Source: a virus
Taxonomy: Duplodnaviria > Heunggongvirae > Uroviricota > Caudoviricetes
IMG/VR virus record: IMGVR_UViG_3300006217_000018
Coordinates: 25,725-89,724 of that record
Strand: one strand, 5' to 3'
Length of the DNA: 64,000 nt
Part shown: positions 2,413 to 28,571 of the stretch, one piece after another
Layout: each line of letters begins with the position of its first letter
Position numbering within the stretch: position 1 is the first letter of the stretch
Made by a program: the position numbers and the translations under genes
Notes under the pieces: model-generated
Told to the model about the DNA's origin: nothing
The model's database searches: none
What the model saw: the letters and a program-made list of their open reading frames with translations, nothing else

Positions 2413-2466
2413 ATCCTCATCCTTTCATGGTTTATAGATATATATTACCAGAAATATGTATTCTTT

Positions 2467-2537
2467 GCAATAATATTGTTAACAATACGTATTTCATGAG
2501 ATAATATTGTTGACAATACGTATTGTATATGATATGA
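2467..2537. promoter_or_regulatory. tandem palindromic operator sites overlapping a sigma70-like promoter (TTGACA-17-TATGAT)
   Basis: direct repeat ATAATATTGTT(A/G)ACAATACGTATT at about 2468-2493 and 2499-2524, each with internal palindrome ATTGTTAACAAT; -35 TTGACA 2509-2514, 17-nt spacer, -10 TATGAT 2532-2537. Confidence 0.55.
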
Positions 2538-3577: not shown

Positions 3578-3650
3578 AGGCTCCTAGTTCAACGGTCAGA
3601 CCAATCGCCTCATAAACGATAAGTTTTGGTTCGAATCCCAAAGGAACCTA
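3578..3650 (+). tRNA. tRNA-like gene, anticodon CAU (Met/fMet/Ile2-like), slightly degenerate
   Basis: hand-folded cloverleaf: acceptor AGGCTCC/GGAACCT with one C-A mismatch, U8, D-stem GTTC/GACC (one U-C mismatch), G18G19, anticodon loop CTCATAA, TTCGAAT T-loop (8-nt loop or a stem mismatch). Confidence 0.45.
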
Positions 3651-3904
3651 CGTAATTAAATCAGTGTTTCATTAGATGAAGCATTGGTTTAATTGCCATA
3701 AAAATAAGGGGAAAAGTGTATGCATATATAGGCTTATATGTCATATATGCAATTTTTGTACTCATTTTTACATTTTTTGTACATATCACCGTTTTTTAAA
3801 AAAATGTGTTTTGTGTTTTTGCGAAGTAATTCTCAAATAATCTTGAAGACTATATAATGACCACCATGAATTGGTGAAATATATTATGAAAGGAGTTTTA
3901 AATT

Positions 3905-4835: not shown

Positions 4836-5510
4836 ATGTGTATTAAAATGGGACATGCATGGAATCCATATTATAATGAAAAAATGGAATATTATTATTC
4901 TGAAAATGCGAAAGAATTACATAATCTTGTCCATCGGATATTGCATAAAAAAATAGGGGGAGTTGTAGATAAAGATTTGGATCACTTTTATTCAATTGCT
5001 AATGATGTGTTTTCTGAAATTGTCTTAAAGGACAGTTACGATCCATCAAAAGGGGATTTCGGAGGTTTTTTGTATAAATCCATTAAGAATAGGATTATAT
5101 CTGATTTTTATAAAACACAGAATGCTGACAAAAGAAAGATGAAAATAGAAGATAGAGATGAGAATGGGAATATAATATTTGAAAATAATGGGAAACCCAA
5201 ACGTGTCCCAATACAAGACATTCGGTTAGATGCGCCAGTTAAAAATGGTGAAGGGATTACATATGGCGAAATAATCCGAGATAAGTTTGATTTAGAAGAA
5301 GAAATATTAAAAAATTTAAAAGAGGAATATAGCGACAAAATGAAGCTGTATTTAGACGGGCTTTCAGATTGCCAAAAAAAAGTTTTATTTCTTATATCAG
5401 ATGGTTATTATCCTCACGAGATAGTAGAAATGTTGGGTATTAGCAAAAAGCAATATTCTAATTGTTATTTGGCGATACATTCATATAGGAATATTTCAAA
5501 ATTAATATAA
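4836..5510 (+). CDS. sigma-70-family (ECF-like) RNA polymerase sigma factor
   Basis: region-2-like DKDLDHFYSIANDVFSEIV...FGGFLYKSIKNRIISDFYK and C-terminal region-4 HTH LSDCQKKVLFLISDGYYPHEIVEMLGISKKQYSN. Confidence 0.6.
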   Translation: MCIKMGHAWNPYYNEKMEYYYSENAKELHNLVHRILHKKIGGVVDKDLDHFYSIANDVFSEIVLKDSYDPSKGDFGGFLYKSIKNRIISDFYKTQNADKRKMKIEDRDENGNIIFENNGKPKRVPIQDIRLDAPVKNGEGITYGEIIRDKFDLEEEILKNLKEEYSDKMKLYLDGLSDCQKKVLFLISDGYYPHEIVEMLGISKKQYSNCYLAIHSYRNISKLI

Positions 5511-5526
5511 TTGGGAGGAATTATCA

Positions 5527-6927
5527 ATGGCGAGACCAAGAAAACAGACTTATACATTAGATATGTATTTGGCAAAGACAAAAGATGGGGATATATGTAA
5601 TGATGCAGACACACAGAGGGATTTTGCGTGGAAGAATGAGCAGATCAATGAATTAATTTATACGGTTTTGACAGATGATTATATCCCGCCAATTATACTT
5701 GGAGAAGAAAATGATTCACAATTACATATTGTAGATGGCGGATGTAGGACAAAGGCATTAGATAAATTTAGATATGGAAACCATAAAATCACATCTACGA
5801 TAGATGATTCTAAGATAGTTTATAAGAAGAAAATAATAAGTGAAGACGGAAAAATCCATTGGGAGGATGGGACGTTTGATATAAAAAATAAAACATATGA
5901 TAAACTTCCAGATGAGTTAAAGAAAAAATTCGATGAATACCAAATAGAGACTGTCATTCATGAAAACTGCGACAGGAAAAGGTTGTCTAAATATGTAAAA
6001 ATATATAACAACCATATTTCAATGAATAGTAATCAGAAAGCATTTACATATTTATATAATTTTGCACCAAATGTTCGTAGAATAACAAATAGTAAATTTT
6101 TTATAGAAAAAAGCGATTTTAAGGAAATAGAAAAAATAAAAGGCGTTATTGAAAGAACAATTGCTGAAACTATCATGTGTTCTGATTATTTAGATGATTG
6201 GAAGAAAAATGCAAAATTAGCATGTAAATATTTGAATAACTGTGCAAAAGATGAGGATTTTGAAAAAGTTGAAAACAACTTACATAGATTGGAAGAAATT
6301 ATTTCTGAAGAAACAAAAATTATTTTTAATAGTAAAGATTCTTTTATATTTTTAACACTGTTTGACAGATTCACTCGTTATGGAATAGAAGATATAAAGT
6401 TTGAGCAGTTCCTGTTAGAGTTTAAAAATAATTTAAGGAATTGTAGAAAGAATAAAAATAATCTTTTATTTGATGAAATAGATAAAGATAAATCAACAAA
6501 GGATAAGACGGTTATTATTGCTAAATTAGACATGTTGGAAGGAATGATGAGAGAATTTTTAGGGATTGACACAGAACCTTGTGACGAAAAAGATGGAAAG
6601 GATACTATTTCTATTAATGAATTTTTAATAGAAAATACAGGGATTGATAAGAAAACAATCAGAGATGATATTGATTATTACAACGATGTCTTAGATGAAC
6701 TTGAAGATAGGACAATAAAATGTGATTCAAAATTATTGCAAGATGAAAACCGTCCATCATTATTAGCAATGGTTGTATACTCGCATCAAGCAGATAAAAA
6801 TTTGGATACATGGATGGAACAATATGCGAAAAGTAATAATACATATTTTAAAGACCAGAAGAAGAATTATCTTCATATGAAAGAAGATTTTATTAAATAT
6901 TGTAAGATACAAGAAAATGCTGCTTAA
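5527..6927 (+). CDS. DUF262 (ParB/Srx-fold, GmrSD N-terminal-like) domain protein, putative nuclease/NTPase
   Basis: QRDFAWKNEQINELIYTVL...IVDGGCRTKAL resembles the DUF262 signature QR.FVW....LIDSIL...IDGQQRLTAL. Confidence 0.55.
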   Translation: MARPRKQTYTLDMYLAKTKDGDICNDADTQRDFAWKNEQINELIYTVLTDDYIPPIILGEENDSQLHIVDGGCRTKALDKFRYGNHKITSTIDDSKIVYKKKIISEDGKIHWEDGTFDIKNKTYDKLPDELKKKFDEYQIETVIHENCDRKRLSKYVKIYNNHISMNSNQKAFTYLYNFAPNVRRITNSKFFIEKSDFKEIEKIKGVIERTIAETIMCSDYLDDWKKNAKLACKYLNNCAKDEDFEKVENNLHRLEEIISEETKIIFNSKDSFIFLTLFDRFTRYGIEDIKFEQFLLEFKNNLRNCRKNKNNLLFDEIDKDKSTKDKTVIIAKLDMLEGMMREFLGIDTEPCDEKDGKDTISINEFLIENTGIDKKTIRDDIDYYNDVLDELEDRTIKCDSKLLQDENRPSLLAMVVYSHQADKNLDTWMEQYAKSNNTYFKDQKKNYLHMKEDFIKYCKIQENAA

Positions 6928-6944
6928 ACTTAAGGAGGATAAAA

Positions 6945-7370
6945 ATGGGAAAAATCGAAGAAGCAATTAGAGTGGCAAGAAAGTTTTATGAAGAAAAGAC
7001 TTTTTATCATGCGATGAGAGTTACTGCGCTTGTAACAGAAAACAATATGATTCCAGAATGCTGTATGGATACATGTGTTATATTGGCGATAATGCATGAC
7101 TTGTTAGAAGACACAGAGTTTGATTACGAAAAAGATACAGAAGACAACAGGTGGGACACACATTTATATCAAAGTTTAAAAATAGTCGCAAGGGATAAAG
7201 AAACCCAAACATATAAAGAGTATTTAGAAAATATAAAGGCTAATTATCTTACCTATCCAGAAGCATATTGGGTTAAGATGGCAGATATAAAAGATCATTT
7301 ATTACAGAGTGAAACATTAACAGATGAACTTAAAAAGAAGTATTTGGAAAATATCCCATATCTATTATAG
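6945..7370 (+). CDS. HD-domain phosphohydrolase (small, 141 aa)
   Basis: H...AIMHDLLEDT motif (His...His-Asp) of HD superfamily metal-dependent phosphohydrolases. Confidence 0.6.
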   Translation: MGKIEEAIRVARKFYEEKTFYHAMRVTALVTENNMIPECCMDTCVILAIMHDLLEDTEFDYEKDTEDNRWDTHLYQSLKIVARDKETQTYKEYLENIKANYLTYPEAYWVKMADIKDHLLQSETLTDELKKKYLENIPYLL

Positions 7371-8154: not shown

Positions 8155-8733
8155 ATGAAAAATTTAAAAGTGACTTGGAAAGGTATCAGCCCGTTAATCA
8201 TGCATTCTTGCCAGTGTGTAAACCAGCTCCATCCTATTGCGAAGGAGTTAAAGAAATACACAAGCAAGAAAAAGAAGACAGATGAAGATCTTGTTAAGAT
8301 TTCAGATTTAGAATGGGAAGCAGGTGCATATTGGAAGGATGGGTTAGGCTTATATATTCCAGCCGAAAATGTAGAAGCTACAATCCGAAATGGAGCAAAA
8401 GCGAACAAAAAGGGGACAGACATTCAAAAATATGTAAACGTCACAAATTTGTACATTCCTTTCAATTATGGAGAAAATCTTACTAAAGAAGAACTTATTC
8501 AGAAGTATGAATACAGAGACACTAGGGTTATGACTGTGCAACGGTCAAGATTACTTAGGACAAGACCCAGATTTGACCAGTGGTGTATTGAGTTTAACCT
8601 TATCTATGATGAAGGAAAAATTGATCTCGATACTATTGTAAATGCAATGGAATATGCAGGTCAGTATGTTGGGCTTTGTGATTCCCGCCCGAAATATGGG
8701 AAGTTTGTTGCTATAATTGAAGAATTGGATTAG
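8155..8733 (+). CDS. hypothetical protein
   Basis: 192-aa ORF, RBS AAAAGGAGAGA. Confidence 0.4.
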   Translation: MKNLKVTWKGISPLIMHSCQCVNQLHPIAKELKKYTSKKKKTDEDLVKISDLEWEAGAYWKDGLGLYIPAENVEATIRNGAKANKKGTDIQKYVNVTNLYIPFNYGENLTKEELIQKYEYRDTRVMTVQRSRLLRTRPRFDQWCIEFNLIYDEGKIDLDTIVNAMEYAGQYVGLCDSRPKYGKFVAIIEELD

Positions 8734-8767
8734 AGTGATATTTTGAAGTAAAATTTGGAGTGATTTG

Positions 8768-8870
8768 GCTAGGCATTTTGAGTTGAGTTATGTTACGTTT
8801 AGTTGGGTTATGTTATGTTAAGTTCAGTTATGTTAAGTTAAGTTAGGCATTTTAGGCTAAGTAAAACAAA
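8768..8870. repeat. pentanucleotide (NNGTT)n array bounded by AGGCATTTTGAG and AGGCATTTTAGGCTAAGTAAAAC boxes
   Basis: gagtt gagtt atgtt acgtt tagtt gggtt atgtt atgtt aagtt cagtt atgtt aagtt aagtt is strict 5-nt periodicity with invariant GTT, 13 units. Confidence 0.8.
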
Positions 8871-8907
8871 AAAATAATTTTATATCTCAAAAAGGAGGAG
8901 AATAAAA

Positions 8908-9363
8908 ATGAATGAAATTATTGAAAACAGGAAGAAATCAGAGATTTTAGCAGAGGAGTTAAGTAAGTTAAATTATGGAGAATTTATCTCGCATAGAAGA
9001 ATTGCTTCTATAATTGATGAAGAATATCCATCAAATAGATACTCATCTGAAATTTCGAAAGCAAAGAAGATTCTTTTGAAAAAATATCGCAAAACGATGG
9101 AGAGTATTATCGGAGACGGTTATAGGTTGGTTAATCCTGATGAGTATGTGGATCATTCCTTAAAACATTATAAGCGTGGGTTCAAAGAAATGCAGAAAGG
9201 TTACGATGTTCTGGAACATGCTCCAAAAGAGCATATGTCTAAAGAAGGCCTGGATGCTTATAGGAGAGTCCATGACAGGACGACTATATTGGCTGCGAGC
9301 ATGAAGGGTGTAAGTGTAGAATTAAAAATTCTTGGACAGAAGAAACACCCGCTATCAATCTGA
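8908..9363 (+). CDS. hypothetical protein
   Basis: ORF with RBS AAAGGAGGAG. Confidence 0.4.
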   Translation: MNEIIENRKKSEILAEELSKLNYGEFISHRRIASIIDEEYPSNRYSSEISKAKKILLKKYRKTMESIIGDGYRLVNPDEYVDHSLKHYKRGFKEMQKGYDVLEHAPKEHMSKEGLDAYRRVHDRTTILAASMKGVSVELKILGQKKHPLSI

Positions 9364-18021: not shown

Positions 18022-19041
18022 ATGAGATTGGAGGATTTGGAAATAAAAATTTTAAGAAATATAAAAGTACCAACTGGAAACATTATGATTGTTGAGGGTG
18101 ACAAGGGAAAACTTGAATGTCTGTCAATCGGAGACTATGGGAAAGAAGCGAACTTAAAGGCTGATTTCATGGGCTTGACAAGGGAGATAGACCATGTAGA
18201 ACATCAGCAAATGTTACCGCTTTCCGAAAAGTGGGTAATCACAATCAGCACACAGTACGGTTGCTCCATGAACTGCAAATTCTGTGATGTGCCGAAAGTC
18301 GGAAAAGGCATAAACGCTACATACGATGATTTGAAAAGTCAGATTGTAACCGGCTTATCATTGCACCCAGAAATCACTCATACAAACCGCTTGAATGTGC
18401 ATTATGCGAGAATGGGAGAGCCTACATGGAATTGGGCGGTTTTGGAGTTTACAAAGAATATGAGAGAAGAATTAAAACCATATATCGGTGACAGCCTTAT
18501 TCATCCCGTTGTTTCCACCATGTTACCGAAGAACAACACAAAATTAGCTGATTATCTTGAAGTGTGGATGGAGATTAAGAACAAAGATTTTTCGGGGGAT
18601 GCCGGATTGCAATTCTCCATCAATTCCACTTCTGACAGCGAAAGAGAGGATATGTTTAGCGGAAATTCTCTGACATTGCAGGAAATTTCAAATATTGGAA
18701 GAAGCCTTGAAATGCCAAAGGGAAGAAAAATTACATTGAATTTTGCGGTTGCTGATTATGAGGTCAATGCAGAGAAGATGAGAGATTTATTCAATCCCGA
18801 AAAATTCCTTGTCAAGTTGACACCTATGCACAAAACACATACCGCCCTTAAAAACGGTATTGAAACAAGCGGAGATTATACAACCATGTATCCATACCGA
18901 CACATTGAAGAGGATTTGAAGAAAGCCGGATTTGATGTGCTTGTGTTTATCGCAAGCGAGTATGAGGACTTGGGGCGCATCACTTGTGGAAATGCAATAT
19001 TGAGCGGAGCATTGCCAGAATGCCCATATGAGGAAGATTAA
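18022..19041 (+). CDS. RlmN/Cfr-family radical-SAM RNA (adenine C2/C8) methyltransferase
   Basis: ISTQYGCSMNCKFCDVPKVG is a CxxxCxxC radical-SAM motif in the RlmN context (E. coli SSQVGCALECKFCST); C-terminal ITCGNA aligns with the conserved C-terminal Cys (AACGQL) of RlmN. Confidence 0.6.
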   Translation: MRLEDLEIKILRNIKVPTGNIMIVEGDKGKLECLSIGDYGKEANLKADFMGLTREIDHVEHQQMLPLSEKWVITISTQYGCSMNCKFCDVPKVGKGINATYDDLKSQIVTGLSLHPEITHTNRLNVHYARMGEPTWNWAVLEFTKNMREELKPYIGDSLIHPVVSTMLPKNNTKLADYLEVWMEIKNKDFSGDAGLQFSINSTSDSEREDMFSGNSLTLQEISNIGRSLEMPKGRKITLNFAVADYEVNAEKMRDLFNPEKFLVKLTPMHKTHTALKNGIETSGDYTTMYPYRHIEEDLKKAGFDVLVFIASEYEDLGRITCGNAILSGALPECPYEED

Positions 19042-19124
19042 AGAGAAAAACTGCTTTGTGATTGTGAATTTAAAAAAGATTATTTGAGAAAGAGATTAAT
19101 GAGTAAAATATGGAGGTATAGATT

Positions 19125-25559: not shown

Positions 25560-25775
25560 ATGATTATTGTAAAATTGACAGTTTTAGCGGTTATGGTGAC
25601 TGCATTATACATTTGGATTTGGAGAGCGTGGTTGAAATTCAATCCAGAAGAAACATTGAAGACAGCCTTTAACAGGAATTACCTGCCAAAAAGCGGATAT
25701 CCGATTATCCTTTTCCTTTTACTTGATGTAATCGGCATTTTCGCAAGCGCAATATACCTTTTGTTCTTTAGGTAG
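25560..25775 (+). CDS. small membrane protein (2 TM)
   Basis: 71 aa with two hydrophobic segments. Confidence 0.4.
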   Translation: MIIVKLTVLAVMVTALYIWIWRAWLKFNPEETLKTAFNRNYLPKSGYPIILFLLLDVIGIFASAIYLLFFR

Positions 25776-25846
25776 CCACACAGCGGACTTTCTTTCGTGG
25801 GAAGTCCGCAAATAATAAAAATTTATTTTATAGGAGGAATTTTAAG

Positions 25847-27320: not shown

Positions 27321-28498
27321 AGAAAAACATCAAAGTTGTAATCGGTGCAAACTTTGGTGATGAAGGAAAAGGCTTGGTGGCAGATTATTTTTGCCACCAA
27401 GCCGCCCTACGGGGTGAAAACTGTATTGTAGTGTGCCATAACGGTGGCGCACAAAGAGGGCATACGGTAGACACGGCGGAGGGGTCGCACCATGTGTTCC
27501 ACCATTTTGGTTCCGGGGTTTTTGCAGGAGCAGATACTTATTTATCAAAGGAGTTTATTGTAAATCCCATTTTATTCAGACAAGAATGGGAAGAATTGCA
27601 GAAATTAGGATATGAACCAACAGTATATTTGAATCCTTCGTGCAGAGTAACAACACCATTTGATATGATAATCAATCAGATTTTGGAAGAAAACCGTTCT
27701 AATGGGCGACATGGAAGCTGTGGCATGGGGATTTTTGAAACCATTAAACGTTATGAGGAAAACTATGGTTATCCGGCATGGGTTTTATTGGAGAATTGCG
27801 GCAAGCGGAACAAAGATGCAATCAAAGCCATAAAACATACATATCTGCCAAAACGCTTTAACGAATTGAAAATGCGGTCAAGTAGAGAATGGGAAGAAAT
27901 AATAAATGCTGATGGGTTGATTGAACAGTTTCTTTCAGATTTGGAATTTACGGCAAGTCATGTAACGGTTTGCGGAGATACAAACGCACTCGAAAAATAC
28001 CAGAATATTATTTTCGAGGGAGGGCAAGGACTTCTGTTAGACCAGAATAATAAAGAATATTTTCCTCATTTGACACCAAGCAACACCGGATTAAAGAATC
28101 CGGCGGAAATGATTTTAAGATTGTTTCCAGATTCAAATGTTGAAGTCTGTTATGTCACAAGACCATATCTAACAAGGCACGGGGCGGGCAGGATTGATAA
28201 TGAGTGCGGAAAAGAAGAAATCAATCCAGATATGGAAGATTTGACAAATGTACCGAACCAACATCAAGGGACAATGCGTTATGGGAAAATGAATGTTTCT
28301 GAATTATTAAACAGAATACAAAAAGATTTTTCTAATGGGAAAGGCTGGAAAATTTCTCTTTCCATAACACACAGCAATGAAGTTCCTGGAATATTTGAAT
28401 CGGTTGATAGCTTCGAGGTAAAGGACTTAAAACAGCAATTTGACGTTATTTATCACTCATTCGGAAAGGCAAGGAACGATATAAAGCAAGCTGATTAA
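27314..28498 (+). CDS. adenylosuccinate synthetase homologue (PurA family; candidate PurZ)
   Basis: VVIGANFGDEGKGLVADYF is the P-loop GxxxGDEGKGK; VVCHNGGAQRGHTV corresponds to PurA VVRYQGGHNAGHT; likely GTG start at 27314. Confidence 0.65.
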   Translation: MVKKNIKVVIGANFGDEGKGLVADYFCHQAALRGENCIVVCHNGGAQRGHTVDTAEGSHHVFHHFGSGVFAGADTYLSKEFIVNPILFRQEWEELQKLGYEPTVYLNPSCRVTTPFDMIINQILEENRSNGRHGSCGMGIFETIKRYEENYGYPAWVLLENCGKRNKDAIKAIKHTYLPKRFNELKMRSSREWEEIINADGLIEQFLSDLEFTASHVTVCGDTNALEKYQNIIFEGGQGLLLDQNNKEYFPHLTPSNTGLKNPAEMILRLFPDSNVEVCYVTRPYLTRHGAGRIDNECGKEEINPDMEDLTNVPNQHQGTMRYGKMNVSELLNRIQKDFSNGKGWKISLSITHSNEVPGIFESVDSFEVKDLKQQFDVIYHSFGKARNDIKQAD

Positions 28499-28571
28499 AG
28501 AGAAAAACCGCTTTGTGATTGTTAATTTTGAGAATGTTTATTATTTGGAGAGTTAGGAGGGGGTTGGAGAA

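What the first reader, a model, noticed from the sequence alone, without database searches (positions are those of the whole stretch)
8768..8870. (NNGTT)13 pentanucleotide array with conserved flanking boxes in the leader of gene 8908
There is strict 5-nt periodicity with an invariant GTT, preceded by AGGCATTTTGAG and followed by AGGCATTTTAGGCTAAGTAAAACAAAAAAATAATTTT, ending at the RBS. Half-turn periodicity with a fixed trinucleotide is typical of a cooperative protein-binding array. It could also be a phase-variable tract, since the unit number differs between the two copies.
Basis: seen in the sequence. Interest (0 to 1): 0.55.

Follow-up and report, generated by a model that had tools for sequence, protein, structure and literature searches.

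The report
Phage VIPR guide-RNA repeat array
The (NNGTT)13 tract is very probably a guide-RNA gene of a phage VIPR system, a CRISPR-like RNA-guided DNA-silencing system first described in 2026 preprints; it uses a G-U-U repeat signature instead of the published G-G-Y.

Summary
Window 8780-8844 holds 13 perfect NNGTT units on the + strand only, bracketed by AGGCATTTT boxes. A second locus at 10160-10329 holds two more modules of 12 and 11 units.

The gene just upstream (8155-8733) is a homologue of the solved SUSP1 Vipr protein (PDB 36pp, E=7e-28). The gene just downstream (8908-9363) falls in the same PHROG family as the accessory gene that follows vipr in Felix-O1-like phages.

VIPR systems were described in two bioRxiv preprints in 2026. 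Vipr protomers bind one per 5-nt repeat of a "vrRNA", hide the conserved trinucleotide and expose the variable NN pairs. Those pairs read double-stranded DNA in an xNN register and silence competing phages.

So the tract is a guide-RNA array. It is not a DNA operator, a phase-variable tract or a translational leader.

Two things differ from the published systems. The repeat is G-U-U rather than G-G-Y, and the Trp that stacks on G2 in SUSP1 is Ser here. The modules are also contiguous, separated only by a 9-nt box, with no pseudoknot tail.

No convincing target was found for guide A/B2, and guide B1 has one weak candidate. A guide from a close relative spells a primase Toprim motif in the wobble register.

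Verdict: new member of a known kind, with a variant repeat.

The parts
8155..8733 (+). vipr gene (192 aa), a RAMP-family RNA-binding protein of the VIPR system
   Evidence: phmmer against PDB 36pp_D 'SUSP1 Vipr protein' gives E=6.9e-28 over residues 3-186; a family profile gives E=4.5e-36. It matches phrog_4652 at E=4e-52, the same PHROG as Felixounavirus VpaE1 vipr at 8e-97. It was the only protein family shared by loci retrieved purely by the NNGTT DNA pattern.
8734..8769 (+). Spacer between the vipr stop codon and the first box. It holds a degenerate box-like GAGTGATATTTT and about 5 decayed pentamers, possibly the remnant of an older module.
   Evidence: Read directly from the sequence. 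In relatives the first box starts 3 nt after the vipr stop codon.
8770..8779 (+). 5' punctuation box TAGGCATTTT (core AGGCATTTT, 9 nt)
   Evidence: Exact copies at 8771, 8845, 10229 and 10293. Relatives use RRGCAUUUU-like boxes between all modules.
8780..8844 (+). vrRNA guide A: 13 x NN-GUU. NN string: GA GA AT AC TA GG AT AT AA CA AT AA AA.
   Evidence: The length lies within the 9-16 repeats reported for vrRNAs (bioRxiv 10.64898/2026.04.26.720920, read).
8845..8881 (+). 3' box AGGCATTTT plus a 28-nt terminal tail, AGGCTAAGTAAAACAAAAAAATAATTTT
   Evidence: The tail is 100% identical to 10293-10329. No stable RNA fold and no Rfam match.
8908..9363 (+). vap1-like accessory gene (151 aa), a putative winged-helix DNA-binding protein
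   Evidence: It matches phrog_5926 at E=1e-8. The gene immediately 3' of vipr in Felixounavirus VpaE1 matches phrog_5926 at E=7e-76. Pairwise BLASTP gives E=0.001 and shares GDGYRLVNP / GVGYRVVEP. A 67%-identical gene sits in the same position in L121, and a 156-159 aa gene is called in the same position in L123-L132.
10159..10168 (+). Variant box TAGGTATTAT that opens the second array
10169..10228 (+). vrRNA guide B1: 12 units, two of them GCU. NN string: GA AA AT GA GT CT GG AA CA GT TA AA.
   Evidence: One candidate target under the 1-nt skip rule lies in L122.
10229..10237 (+). Box AGGCATTTT between guides B1 and B2
10238..10292 (+). vrRNA guide B2: 11 units, a duplicate of guide A units 1-10 followed by CA
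10293..10329 (+). Box plus a terminal tail identical to 8845-8881

Best explanation
The tract is one of three guide-RNA (vrRNA) modules of a VIPR (Viral Interference Programmable Repeat) system carried by this phage.

Proposed mechanism, with each step marked as shown or inferred:

1. The arrays are transcribed on the + strand, probably together with vipr and the vap1-like gene (inferred).
2. Vipr protomers polymerise along the RNA, one per pentamer. They bury G1, U2 and U3 and expose each NN dinucleotide. This is inferred by homology with the SUSP1 cryo-EM structures.
3. The 9-nt AGGCAUUUU boxes break the 5-nt register. They would delimit filaments of 11-13 protomers and mark where the RNA is trimmed (inferred).
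4. The ribonucleoprotein reads double-stranded DNA with the NN pairs in an xNN register, skipping one target base per unit, and blocks transcription of a competing phage or mobile element. The Vap1-like DNA-binding protein assists. This was shown experimentally for SUSP1 in the preprints. For this clade it rests only on in-silico matches.

Two features differ from the published type II systems. The conserved trinucleotide is G-U-U instead of G-G-Y. The modules are contiguous with minimal punctuation instead of a hairpin leader and a pseudoknot tail.
For: Protein partner:
- Window 8155-8733 matches the solved SUSP1 Vipr over its full length (E=6.9e-28; profile E=4.5e-36). A weak Csm5/RAMP hit also appears.
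- Residues that contact G1 in SUSP1 (H17, D177) and the pyrimidine-pocket residues E71 and R179 are conserved here as H17, D176, E71 and R178. The thumb R138 is R137 here, and K33 is K33.
- The Trp that stacks on G2 (W178) is Ser177 here. The D-S-R triad is present in 117 of 120 close homologues.

Genomic association, found independently of the protein:
- A blind scan of IMG/VR for (GTTNN)x7 returned 119 loci.
- 8 of the 19 loci with variable NN carry a Vipr homologue (E<=1e-50) in the fetched fragment, against 0 of 100 simple-repeat loci. My Fisher exact arithmetic on those counts gives about 1e-7.
- Arrays abut that gene on the same strand.

Architecture:
- Modules hold 9-14 units and each body is an exact multiple of 5 nt.
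- The clade logo over 253 units is N N G(0.89) U(0.69)/A(0.21) Y(0.99). The positions match G1, a relaxed position 2 and a strict pyrimidine at position 3.
- NN content and module number differ between contigs that encode an identical Vipr.

Accessory gene: 8908-9363 is in phrog_5926, like the gene after vipr in a Felixounavirus whose locus has canonical (NNGGT)n vrRNAs.

Code:
- A 14-unit guide from a relative (L125 module 3) matches two independent phage primase genes at 24/28 and 25/28 NN positions.
- The matches are in frame, with the skipped base at the codon third position, on the Toprim motif (F/I)ICEGQIDA(I/M)S.
- Window guide B1 matches L122 at 22/24, also in the wobble register.

Other:
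- No self-target was found in the window, as the preprint reports for its systems.
- The leaders fold no better than shuffles (z = 0.12 and +1.68), as expected for protein-coated single-stranded guides.
Against: - There are no expression data. Transcription, processing and Vipr binding of these RNAs are all inferred.
- The repeat is GUU, not the GGY that defines the characterised systems. The text of the preprint names only NNNGG, YNNNG and NNNNG as alternatives, so use of the same 1-nt skip code here is an extrapolation.
- Guide A/B2 had no 10-unit perfect match in the wobble register in IMG/VR. It also had no match to the 11-unit pattern in GTDB genomes or JGI metagenomes. Its only hit (L134/L135, 22/26) is out of the wobble register and is probably chance.
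- The B1 hit is a single match. By my own estimate, chance would give a few tenths of a hit per scan. The target contig's host is unknown.
- The Trp-to-Ser correlation has an exception: L042 has E-W-R with GTT repeats.
- There is no structured 3' tail like the SUSP1 pseudoknot.
Confidence: 0.9

Rival explanations
1. DNA-level operator: a phage DNA-binding protein polymerises on duplex DNA at half-turn spacing upstream of genes 8908 and 10355 to regulate their promoters.
For: The arrays lie immediately 5' of two genes and end about 25 nt before their RBS. A putative DNA-binding protein, the vap1-like product, is encoded next door.
Against: - The arrays are strictly strand-specific and co-oriented with vipr in every locus examined. 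That is expected for an RNA, not for a duplex site.
- Successive 5-bp sites would face opposite sides of the helix.
- The associated conserved protein is a RAMP RNA-binding protein with a solved RNP structure at one protomer per 5-nt RNA repeat.
- In relatives the array grows to 8 modules (about 580 bp) with hypervariable NN, which is unlike an operator.
- No sigma-70-like promoter was predicted within the intergenic regions.
Confidence: 0.03
2. Phase-variable tract: slipped-strand changes in unit number switch expression of the downstream gene.
For: The two duplicated copies differ by exactly two units (10 nt).
Against: - Units differ in their NN positions, so the tract is not a homogeneous microsatellite.
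- The tract is non-coding and lies upstream of the RBS, so unit number cannot shift a reading frame.
- Relatives differ by whole modules with unrelated NN strings, each bounded by boxes, not by unit-count polymorphism.
- Module bodies are always multiples of 5 nt.
Confidence: 0.02
3. RNA leader bound by some other oligomeric RNA-binding protein (TRAP-like ring, SSB-like autoregulation), or acting as an unstructured translational enhancer for 8908 and 10355, independently of Vipr.
For: The 5-nt register resembles TRAP's triplet-plus-2-nt spacing (from my own knowledge of TRAP). The leader is unstructured. The modules of 11-13 units first suggested a ring.
Against: - No TRAP-like or Hfq-like protein was detected among the neighbours.
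- The invariant bases are G-U-U, not the xAG triplet.
- In relatives the arrays sit only between vipr and vap. Across unrelated phages the only co-occurring gene is vipr.
- A dual role is not excluded: vrRNA processing could influence vap expression.
Confidence: 0.03
4. Decayed or inactive VIPR remnant: the system is recognisable, but the window's reduced array (1+2 modules against 3-8 in relatives) no longer functions.
For: - The window has fewer modules than relatives.
- A degenerate module remnant lies at 8734-8769.
- No target was found for guide A/B2.
Against: - GUU is perfect in 34 of 36 units, cleaner than in the relatives.
- vipr is intact and 82-96% identical to more than 100 homologues, with the key residues conserved.
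- Guide A has been recently duplicated and kept.
Confidence: 0.05

Closest known systems
Type II VIPR system of Escherichia phage SUSP1 and other Felixounaviruses (bioRxiv 10.64898/2026.04.26.720920 and 10.64898/2026.04.26.720927; PDB 36pp)
   Same: - Homologous Vipr protein, about 31% identical over the full length, with the G1-contact and Y3-pocket residues E71 and R179, the thumb Arg and K33 conserved.
- A vap1-like gene (phrog_5926) immediately downstream.
- vrRNAs built of 9-16 pentamers with a conserved trinucleotide and a hypervariable NN.
- Arrays flank the two genes on the same strand.
- Phage-encoded.
- No self-targeting.
- A relative's guide matches a coding sequence with the skipped base at the wobble position.
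   Different: - The repeat is G-U-U, not G-G-Y, and the G2-stacking Trp178 is Ser.
- There is no ~40-nt hairpin leader and no pseudoknot tail. Compare VpaE1: (NNGGT)n followed by ATGGGTAGTTAATCGGAGCTAC...
- Modules are contiguous and separated only by a 9-nt RRGCAUUUU box that shifts the register by -1.
- One vrRNA lies between vipr and vap.
- The host is probably a gut Clostridia-type bacterium: GC is 34%, and an 82%-identical homologue occurs in Clostridium sp. WB02_MRS01.
'Staggered' vrRNA arrays mentioned in the VIPR preprint (fig. S18 legend)
   Same: vrRNAs are contiguous, and the end of one marks the start of the next with a 1-nt offset. Here each 9-nt box produces a -1 register shift between modules.
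   Different: I could read only the figure legend. The repeat consensus and VIPR type of those arrays are unknown to me, so equivalence is not established.
Class 1 CRISPR Cas7-crRNA backbone filaments (Cascade, Csm/Cmr)
   Same: A RAMP fold with thumb and G-loop. One protomer binds per fixed RNA interval and flips out bases periodically. The guide is displayed for target pairing. A weak Csm5 hit appears at E=0.15.
   Different: - The period is 5 nt with 3 of 5 bases sequestered, against 6 nt with 1 of 6.
- The guide code is non-contiguous.
- There are no CRISPR repeats and no cas1/cas2 acquisition genes.
- It is phage-encoded.
- The action is repression rather than cleavage, in the type II VIPR.
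TRAP-trp leader RNA of Bacillus (11 x (G/U)AG with 2-3 nt spacers)
   Same: An oligomeric protein reads a short conserved motif repeated about every 5 nt on an unstructured RNA.
   Different: The protein fold is unrelated, the motif differs, and the purpose is attenuation. The variable positions carry no information in TRAP. This was considered early and rejected.

Membership tests
VIPR system | Encodes a Vipr protein: a minimal RAMP with RRM core, G-loop and thumb | tested here: met
   Full-length sequence match to the solved SUSP1 Vipr (E=6.9e-28; profile E=4.5e-36). The G-loop AGxxxGLxDSRPxYGxF and the thumb RTRP are aligned. A 3D model was not computed.
VIPR system | Intergenic tandem pentanucleotide repeats (9-16 units) flanking vipr on the same strand, with a conserved trinucleotide alternating with a hypervariable NN | tested here: met
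   Modules of 13, 12 and 11 units in the window and 9-14 units in relatives. Logo: G 0.89, Y 0.99, NN near-random with 16 dinucleotides seen. NN content differs between contigs with an identical Vipr.
VIPR system | Repeat consensus GGY/NN (YNNGG) | tested here: not met
   The repeat is GUU/NN: 34 of 36 units are GTT and 2 are GCT. The preprint allows 'a related consensus' and names NNNGG, YNNNG and NNNNG. In that register GUU/NN reads YNNGU, which is not named in the text. I could not view fig. S17.
VIPR system | Residues that read the conserved bases (SUSP1 H17 and D177 for G1; R138 and W178 for G2; E71, M72, R179 for Y3) | tested here: inconclusive
   H17, D176, R137, E71 and R178 are conserved. 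W178 is S177 and M72 is N72. This is consistent with retained G1 and Y3 and an altered position 2. The link is correlative only, and L042 is an exception.
VIPR system | Invariant structured 3' tail capping each vrRNA (a pseudoknot in the SUSP1 clade) | tested here: not met
   Only a 9-nt box separates the modules. The 28-nt terminal tail is conserved between the two loci but has no stable fold and no Rfam hit, hammerhead included.
VIPR system | Adjacent vap accessory gene | tested here: met
   Window 8908-9363 matches phrog_5926 at 1e-8. The VpaE1 gene 3' of vipr matches phrog_5926 at 7e-76. BLASTP between them gives E=0.001. That the VpaE1 gene equals the preprint's vap1 is inferred from synteny.
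VIPR system | vrRNAs are expressed as discrete small RNAs and co-purify with Vipr | not testable with these tools
   This needs small-RNA sequencing or a pull-down.
VIPR system | NN dinucleotides specify dsDNA targets by the 1-nt skip (xNN) rule, typically in other phages or mobile elements, with no self-targets | tested here: inconclusive
   - No self-target in the window.
- Guide B1: one hit at 22/24 in the wobble register.
- Guide A: no credible hit.
- Relative's guide L125_3: two primase Toprim hits at 24/28 and 25/28 in the wobble register.
- Local skip 0/1/2/4 controls on 1.2 Mb showed no enrichment, because the database was too small.
CRISPR-Cas | Direct repeats of 25-40 nt separated by unique spacers, with cas1/cas2 or effector cas genes | tested here: not met
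   No such repeats and no cas domains in the neighbourhood.
TRAP-type attenuation leader | MtrB/TRAP protein and (G/U)AG triplet repeats | tested here: not met
   Only 5 of 13 triplets in guide A are (G/U)AG-type. No TRAP-like Pfam or PHROG hit among the neighbouring genes.

The most novel reading that the evidence does not exclude
The G-U-U repeat, together with replacement of the G2-stacking Trp by Ser, Asn, Leu or Phe, may define a distinct repeat-recognition class. The class is widespread: at least five divergent Vipr clades in IMG/VR, all found here by DNA pattern alone.

If so, the 'handle' trinucleotide of VIPR guides would be evolvable and would pair specifically with its own protein. 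Co-infecting phages could then keep their guide RNAs from being loaded by, or hijacked by, a rival's Vipr. This would also give a second, orthogonal programmable DNA-binding scaffold.

It also remains possible that this class reads targets with a rule other than the 1-nt skip. That would explain why guide A found no target.
Probability: 0.3. Interest if true: 0.6.

Novelty: new member of a known kind. Interest (0 to 1): 0.45.

Why it matters
VIPR is a very recently described RNA-guided DNA-recognition system, proposed by its discoverers to predate CRISPR.

- **Reach.** This locus suggests the system is present and abundant in large, low-GC phages that appear to come from gut samples. More than 1000 homologues were found at E<=0.001, and the 120 best listed (protein clusters at 90% identity) are 81-96% identical to the window protein.
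- **Evolvable handle.** The conserved trinucleotide can be G-U-U rather than G-G-Y, with a matching change in the base-reading G-loop.
- **Compact arrays.** The arrays can be reduced to contiguous modules with a 9-nt punctuation.
- **Practical uses.** NNGTT arrays could serve as a DNA-level marker for finding VIPR loci. The NN strings record which genes rival phages are attacked at; in a relative, one guide spells a primase Toprim motif. The variant handle may offer an orthogonal tool.

Tried and rejected
- **TRAP-like or ring-protein RNA leader and T4-type primase GTT sites.** Both were early ideas prompted by the 5-nt register. I dropped them once the only co-occurring gene proved to be a Vipr homologue.
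- **Stable RNA structure or a known RNA family.** Folds were no better than shuffles. Rfam gave nothing at gathering or E<=1 thresholds, so there is no hammerhead between modules.
- **Promoter or terminator inside the intergenic regions.** There was no enrichment. The one weak terminator-like hairpin, at 10196-10212, is formed by the two GCU units of guide B1.
- **Close phage relatives in INPHARED.** Megablast found none. The nearest hit for the neighbouring 705-aa gene, MT835874.1, has no array.
- **Self-targeting in the window.** None found under skip 0-2.
- **Target scans under the 1-nt skip rule.**
  - Guide A units 1-10: 0 hits.
  - Guide A units 4-13: L134/L135 only, out of the codon-wobble register.
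  - Guides A/B2, 11 units, in GTDB genomes and JGI metagenomes: 0 hits.
  - Guide B1, 22-nt pattern, in genomes and metagenomes: 0 hits.
  - Relatives' guides L130_4 and L125_7: 0 hits.
- **Local skip-rule comparison.** Run on 1.2 Mb of fetched loci, it was uninformative.
- **Placing the B1 candidate target (L122).** Host and phage family could not be assigned.
- **Supplementary data of the preprint.** The type table and logos are not held, so the VIPR type could not be assigned formally.
- **Structure prediction.** I did not run it, because the sequence match to a solved Vipr made it unnecessary.

Full report
**1. Observation**

Window 8770-8881 reads TAGGCATTTT, then 13 units of NNGTT (8780-8844), then AGGCATTTT, then AGGCTAAGTAAAACAAAAAAATAATTTT. 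The RBS and the ATG at 8908 follow. Tandem Repeats Finder reports period 5 and 13.0 copies.

A second locus at 10159-10329 has this layout:

| Element | Coordinates |
|---|---|
| Variant box TAGGTATTAT | 10159-10168 |
| 12 units (two are GCT) | 10169-10228 |
| Box AGGCATTTT | 10229-10237 |
| 11 units | 10238-10292 |
| Box plus the same 28-nt tail | 10293-10329 |

Period-5 GTT runs of five or more units occur nowhere else in the 64 kb and never on the - strand. In 200 first-order Markov simulations the longest period-5 run of any trinucleotide was 3-5, against 13 observed.

Locus A and the 3' module of locus B are a recent duplication. They are identical except for a two-unit indel and one substitution.

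**2. How the identification was reached**

The window looks like part of a large phage. Nearly all long ORFs are on the + strand, GC is 34%, it carries a tRNA-Met, and it has no close relative in INPHARED. Neither leader folds better than shuffled sequence, and Rfam finds nothing there.

I scanned IMG/VR for the bare pattern (GTTNN)x7, which returned 119 loci. Most were simple microsatellites or telomere-like TTAGG repeats. About 19 had variable NN positions, often several arrays per contig, lying just upstream of genes on the same strand.

An all-against-all comparison covered ten array-bearing sequences: the window, eight pattern-derived loci, and L121, which had been fetched by homology to the 8908 gene. 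Exactly one protein family was shared, present in nine of the ten. It is the homologue of window 8155-8733 (phrog_4652), the gene that ends 37 nt before the first box.

A profile search made this quantitative. A homologue with E<=1e-50 occurs in 8 of 19 variable-NN loci and in 0 of 100 low-diversity loci. My Fisher exact arithmetic on those counts gives about 1e-7.

**3. Identity of the protein**

The family profile hits PDB 36pp chain D, 'SUSP1 Vipr protein', at E=4.5e-36, with a weak Csm5 (RAMP) hit behind it. The window protein alone gives E=6.9e-28 over residues 3-186.

Two bioRxiv preprints from 2026 describe VIPR systems (10.64898/2026.04.26.720920 and 10.64898/2026.04.26.720927). Their main points:

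- VIPR systems are mostly phage-encoded.
- A minimal RAMP protein, Vipr, polymerises on a vrRNA made of 9-16 pentamers, one protomer per repeat. In each pentamer a conserved GGY alternates with a hypervariable NN.
- The GGY bases are sequestered. G1 is read by H17 and D177. G2 is held by R138 and W178. Y3 sits in a purine-excluding pocket formed by E71, M72 and R179.
- The NN pairs base-pair with double-stranded DNA, skipping one target base per unit (the xNN register), and form an R-loop triplex that represses transcription.
- Natural targets are competing phages, satellites and prophages. They are mostly coding sequences with the skipped base at the codon wobble position.
- No self-targets were found.
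- Loci usually contain vipr plus one accessory gene, vap.

**4. Fit of the window locus**

*Key residues.* The table compares SUSP1 residues with their window equivalents.

| SUSP1 | Window | Role in SUSP1 |
|---|---|---|
| H17 | H17 | reads G1 |
| D177 | D176 | reads G1 |
| R138 | R137 | thumb, holds G2 |
| W178 | S177 | stacks on G2 |
| E71 | E71 | Y3 pocket |
| M72 | N72 | Y3 pocket |
| R179 | R178 | Y3 pocket |
| K33 | K33 | contacts target backbone |

The D-S-R triad is present in 117 of 120 close homologues.

*Repeat logo.* Over 253 units from 22 distinct guides of this clade the logo is N N G(0.89) U(0.69)/A(0.21) U/C(0.99). That is a kept G1, a relaxed position 2 and a strict pyrimidine at position 3. 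This supports the register G1-U2-U3-N4-N5.

*G-loop residue across other loci.* The table covers the further systems inspected, beyond the window's D-S-R.

| Repeat type | Triad at the W178 position |
|---|---|
| GGY or NNNGG | DWR, DWR, DWR, EYR, DYR |
| GUU | RFR, TFR, ELR, ELR, DNR, DNR, EWR |

The correlation is suggestive. It is not corrected for phylogeny, and L042 (EWR with GTT repeats) is an exception.

*Accessory gene.* Window 8908-9363 matches phrog_5926 at 1e-8. In Felixounavirus VpaE1, whose Vipr is nearly identical to SUSP1's, the gene right after vipr is phrog_5926 at 7e-76. The two proteins align at E=0.001 and share a GxGYRxVxP wing-like motif. So the window has the two-gene, type-II-like core. 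The formal VIPR type could not be assigned, because the supplementary data are not held.

**5. Array architecture in the clade**

Ten contigs encode the same Vipr protein, which is 86% identical to the window's. They carry 3-8 contiguous modules between the vipr stop codon and vap.

Each module is a 9-nt box (RRGCAUUUU-like) followed by 9-14 pentamers, and each body is an exact multiple of 5 nt. The box therefore shifts the register by -1 from one module to the next. This resembles the 'staggered arrays' named in the preprint, which I could not inspect.

Module content differs between contigs with an identical Vipr, through gain and loss of whole cassettes. There is no hairpin leader and no pseudoknot tail, unlike VpaE1.

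The window has a reduced set of three guides (A, B1, B2), but its GUU is unusually clean at 34 of 36 units.

**6. Targets**

No self-target exists in the window. I scanned collections with 10-unit xNN patterns.

| Guide and units | Collection | Result |
|---|---|---|
| A, units 1-10 | IMG/VR | 0 hits |
| A, units 4-13 | IMG/VR | 2 related jumbo-phage contigs, 22/26, skipped base not at wobble position |
| A/B2, 11 units | GTDB genomes, JGI metagenomes | 0 hits |
| B1, units 1-10 | IMG/VR | 1 hit (L122), 22/24 over 12 units |
| B1, 22-nt pattern | genomes, metagenomes | 0 hits |
| L125 module 3 (relative, 14 units), units 3-12 | IMG/VR | 2 unrelated contigs, 24/28 and 25/28 |
| L130_4 and L125_7 (relatives) | IMG/VR | 0 hits |

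The guide A hit in L134/L135 is probably chance, because it is out of the wobble register.

The guide B1 hit is in frame, with the skipped base at every codon third position (peptide EKIDVLGKHVLK). It lies in a small ORF between a UvsX-like recombinase gene and an exonuclease gene. By my own estimate chance would give a few tenths of a hit per scan, so this is only a candidate. Its phage could not be placed.

The L125 module 3 hits are both in frame and in the wobble register. They fall on the Toprim motif (F/I)ICEGQIDA(I/M)S of T7-gp4-like primase or primase-helicase genes. The guide's NN string spells V-[F/L]-[I/M]-C-[D/E]-G-[H/Q]-[I/M]-[D/E]-A-[I/M]-S-[F/L]-[D/E], which is the canonical Toprim signature.

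This is the best in-silico support that the GUU clade uses the same 1-nt skip code and aims at essential replication genes of rival phages.

**7. Verdict**

Its central intuition, a cooperative protein-binding array, is right in spirit. But the array acts as RNA, the variable dinucleotides are the information, and phase variation is not supported.

The feature is a vrRNA array of a VIPR system, a kind known since 2026. I file it as a new member. It has two notable variant traits: a G-U-U handle with Trp replaced by Ser in the G-loop, and minimal 9-nt punctuation without a structured tail.

Expression, processing, the binding specificity of the variant handle and the targets of guides A and B2 remain untested.

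Noticed in passing
window 11079-11438 and 13600-13879 (TTCCTTCT starts at 11123, 11207, 11296, 11431, 13644, 13718, 13789, 13872); also L120 1749-1997: A bipartite motif, GGCTAT-N9-TTCCTTCT, occurs 8 times on the + strand in two clusters that flank gene 11502-13619 (phrog_33734). TTCCTTCT occurs 13 times in the window against 5.8 +/- 2.2 in shuffles. The same motif occurs 4 times upstream of the homologous gene in the faecal phage MT835874.1. It could be a phage-specific promoter or another small-RNA array.
   Followed up: partly
window 19036-19071 and 28493-28528; 17978-18022 and 25773-25817: Two pairs of near-identical intergenic repeats. The first is a 36-nt pair (94% identical), GATTAAAGAGAAAAACYGCTTTGTGATTGT.AATTT. 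The second is a 45-nt pair (93% identical) containing a GCGGACTT...AAGTCCGC hairpin. They look like shared regulatory or terminator elements in the structural-gene region.
   Followed up: no
window 2453-2524: A 31-nt tandem repeat (2.3 copies) with TTGTTAACAATA-type palindromes lies just upstream of gene 2577-2984 and looks like an operator.
   Followed up: no
window 3578-3651 and about 11320-11360: A tRNA-Met gene lies at 3578-3651. A tRNA-like fragment, GGGTCATCGGTTCGAGTCCGATTATTCCCAAC, sits in the 11065-11501 intergenic region and was not called by ARAGORN. The homologous region of MT835874.1 seemed, from reading the sequence, to carry several tRNA-like stretches (not checked with ARAGORN).
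   Followed up: no
window 4836-7370; L123-L132 around vipr: VIPR sits in a variable accessory region. The window has a sigma-like gene (4836-5510), a GmrSD_N-like gene (5527-6927) and an HD-domain gene (6945-7370) upstream. Relatives with an identical Vipr carry different cargo next to vap: Abi_alpha, SIR2, DUF8224 and PP2C/protein kinase. This looks like a defence or counter-defence hot spot.
   Followed up: partly
L014 7960-11108; L054; L015, L055, L096: Other variable (NNGTT)n arrays in IMG/VR have no Vipr homologue within the fetched fragment. L014 has five arrays, several ending in AAGTTAAGGTGTAGTTTTT or a close variant. L054 has an array next to a T7-like promoter, TCACTATAGGG. L015, L055 and L096 have arrays next to TTGGTTGCCAAA-type iterons. 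The vipr gene may lie outside the fragment, or these may be a different element.
   Followed up: partly
window 9453-9731: A 92-aa ORF between the vap1-like gene and the second array has a weak, sub-threshold match to the T4 gp33-type late-transcription coactivator (PF16805, E=0.0035).
   Followed up: no
L139 (Listonella phage phiHSIC) about 2236-2390: Next to its Vipr homologue (G-loop D-F-R), the period-5 signal reads G-C-A/NN rather than GGY or GUU. This may be yet another handle variant. It overlaps an annotated - strand ORF (ORF21) that may be spurious.
   Followed up: no
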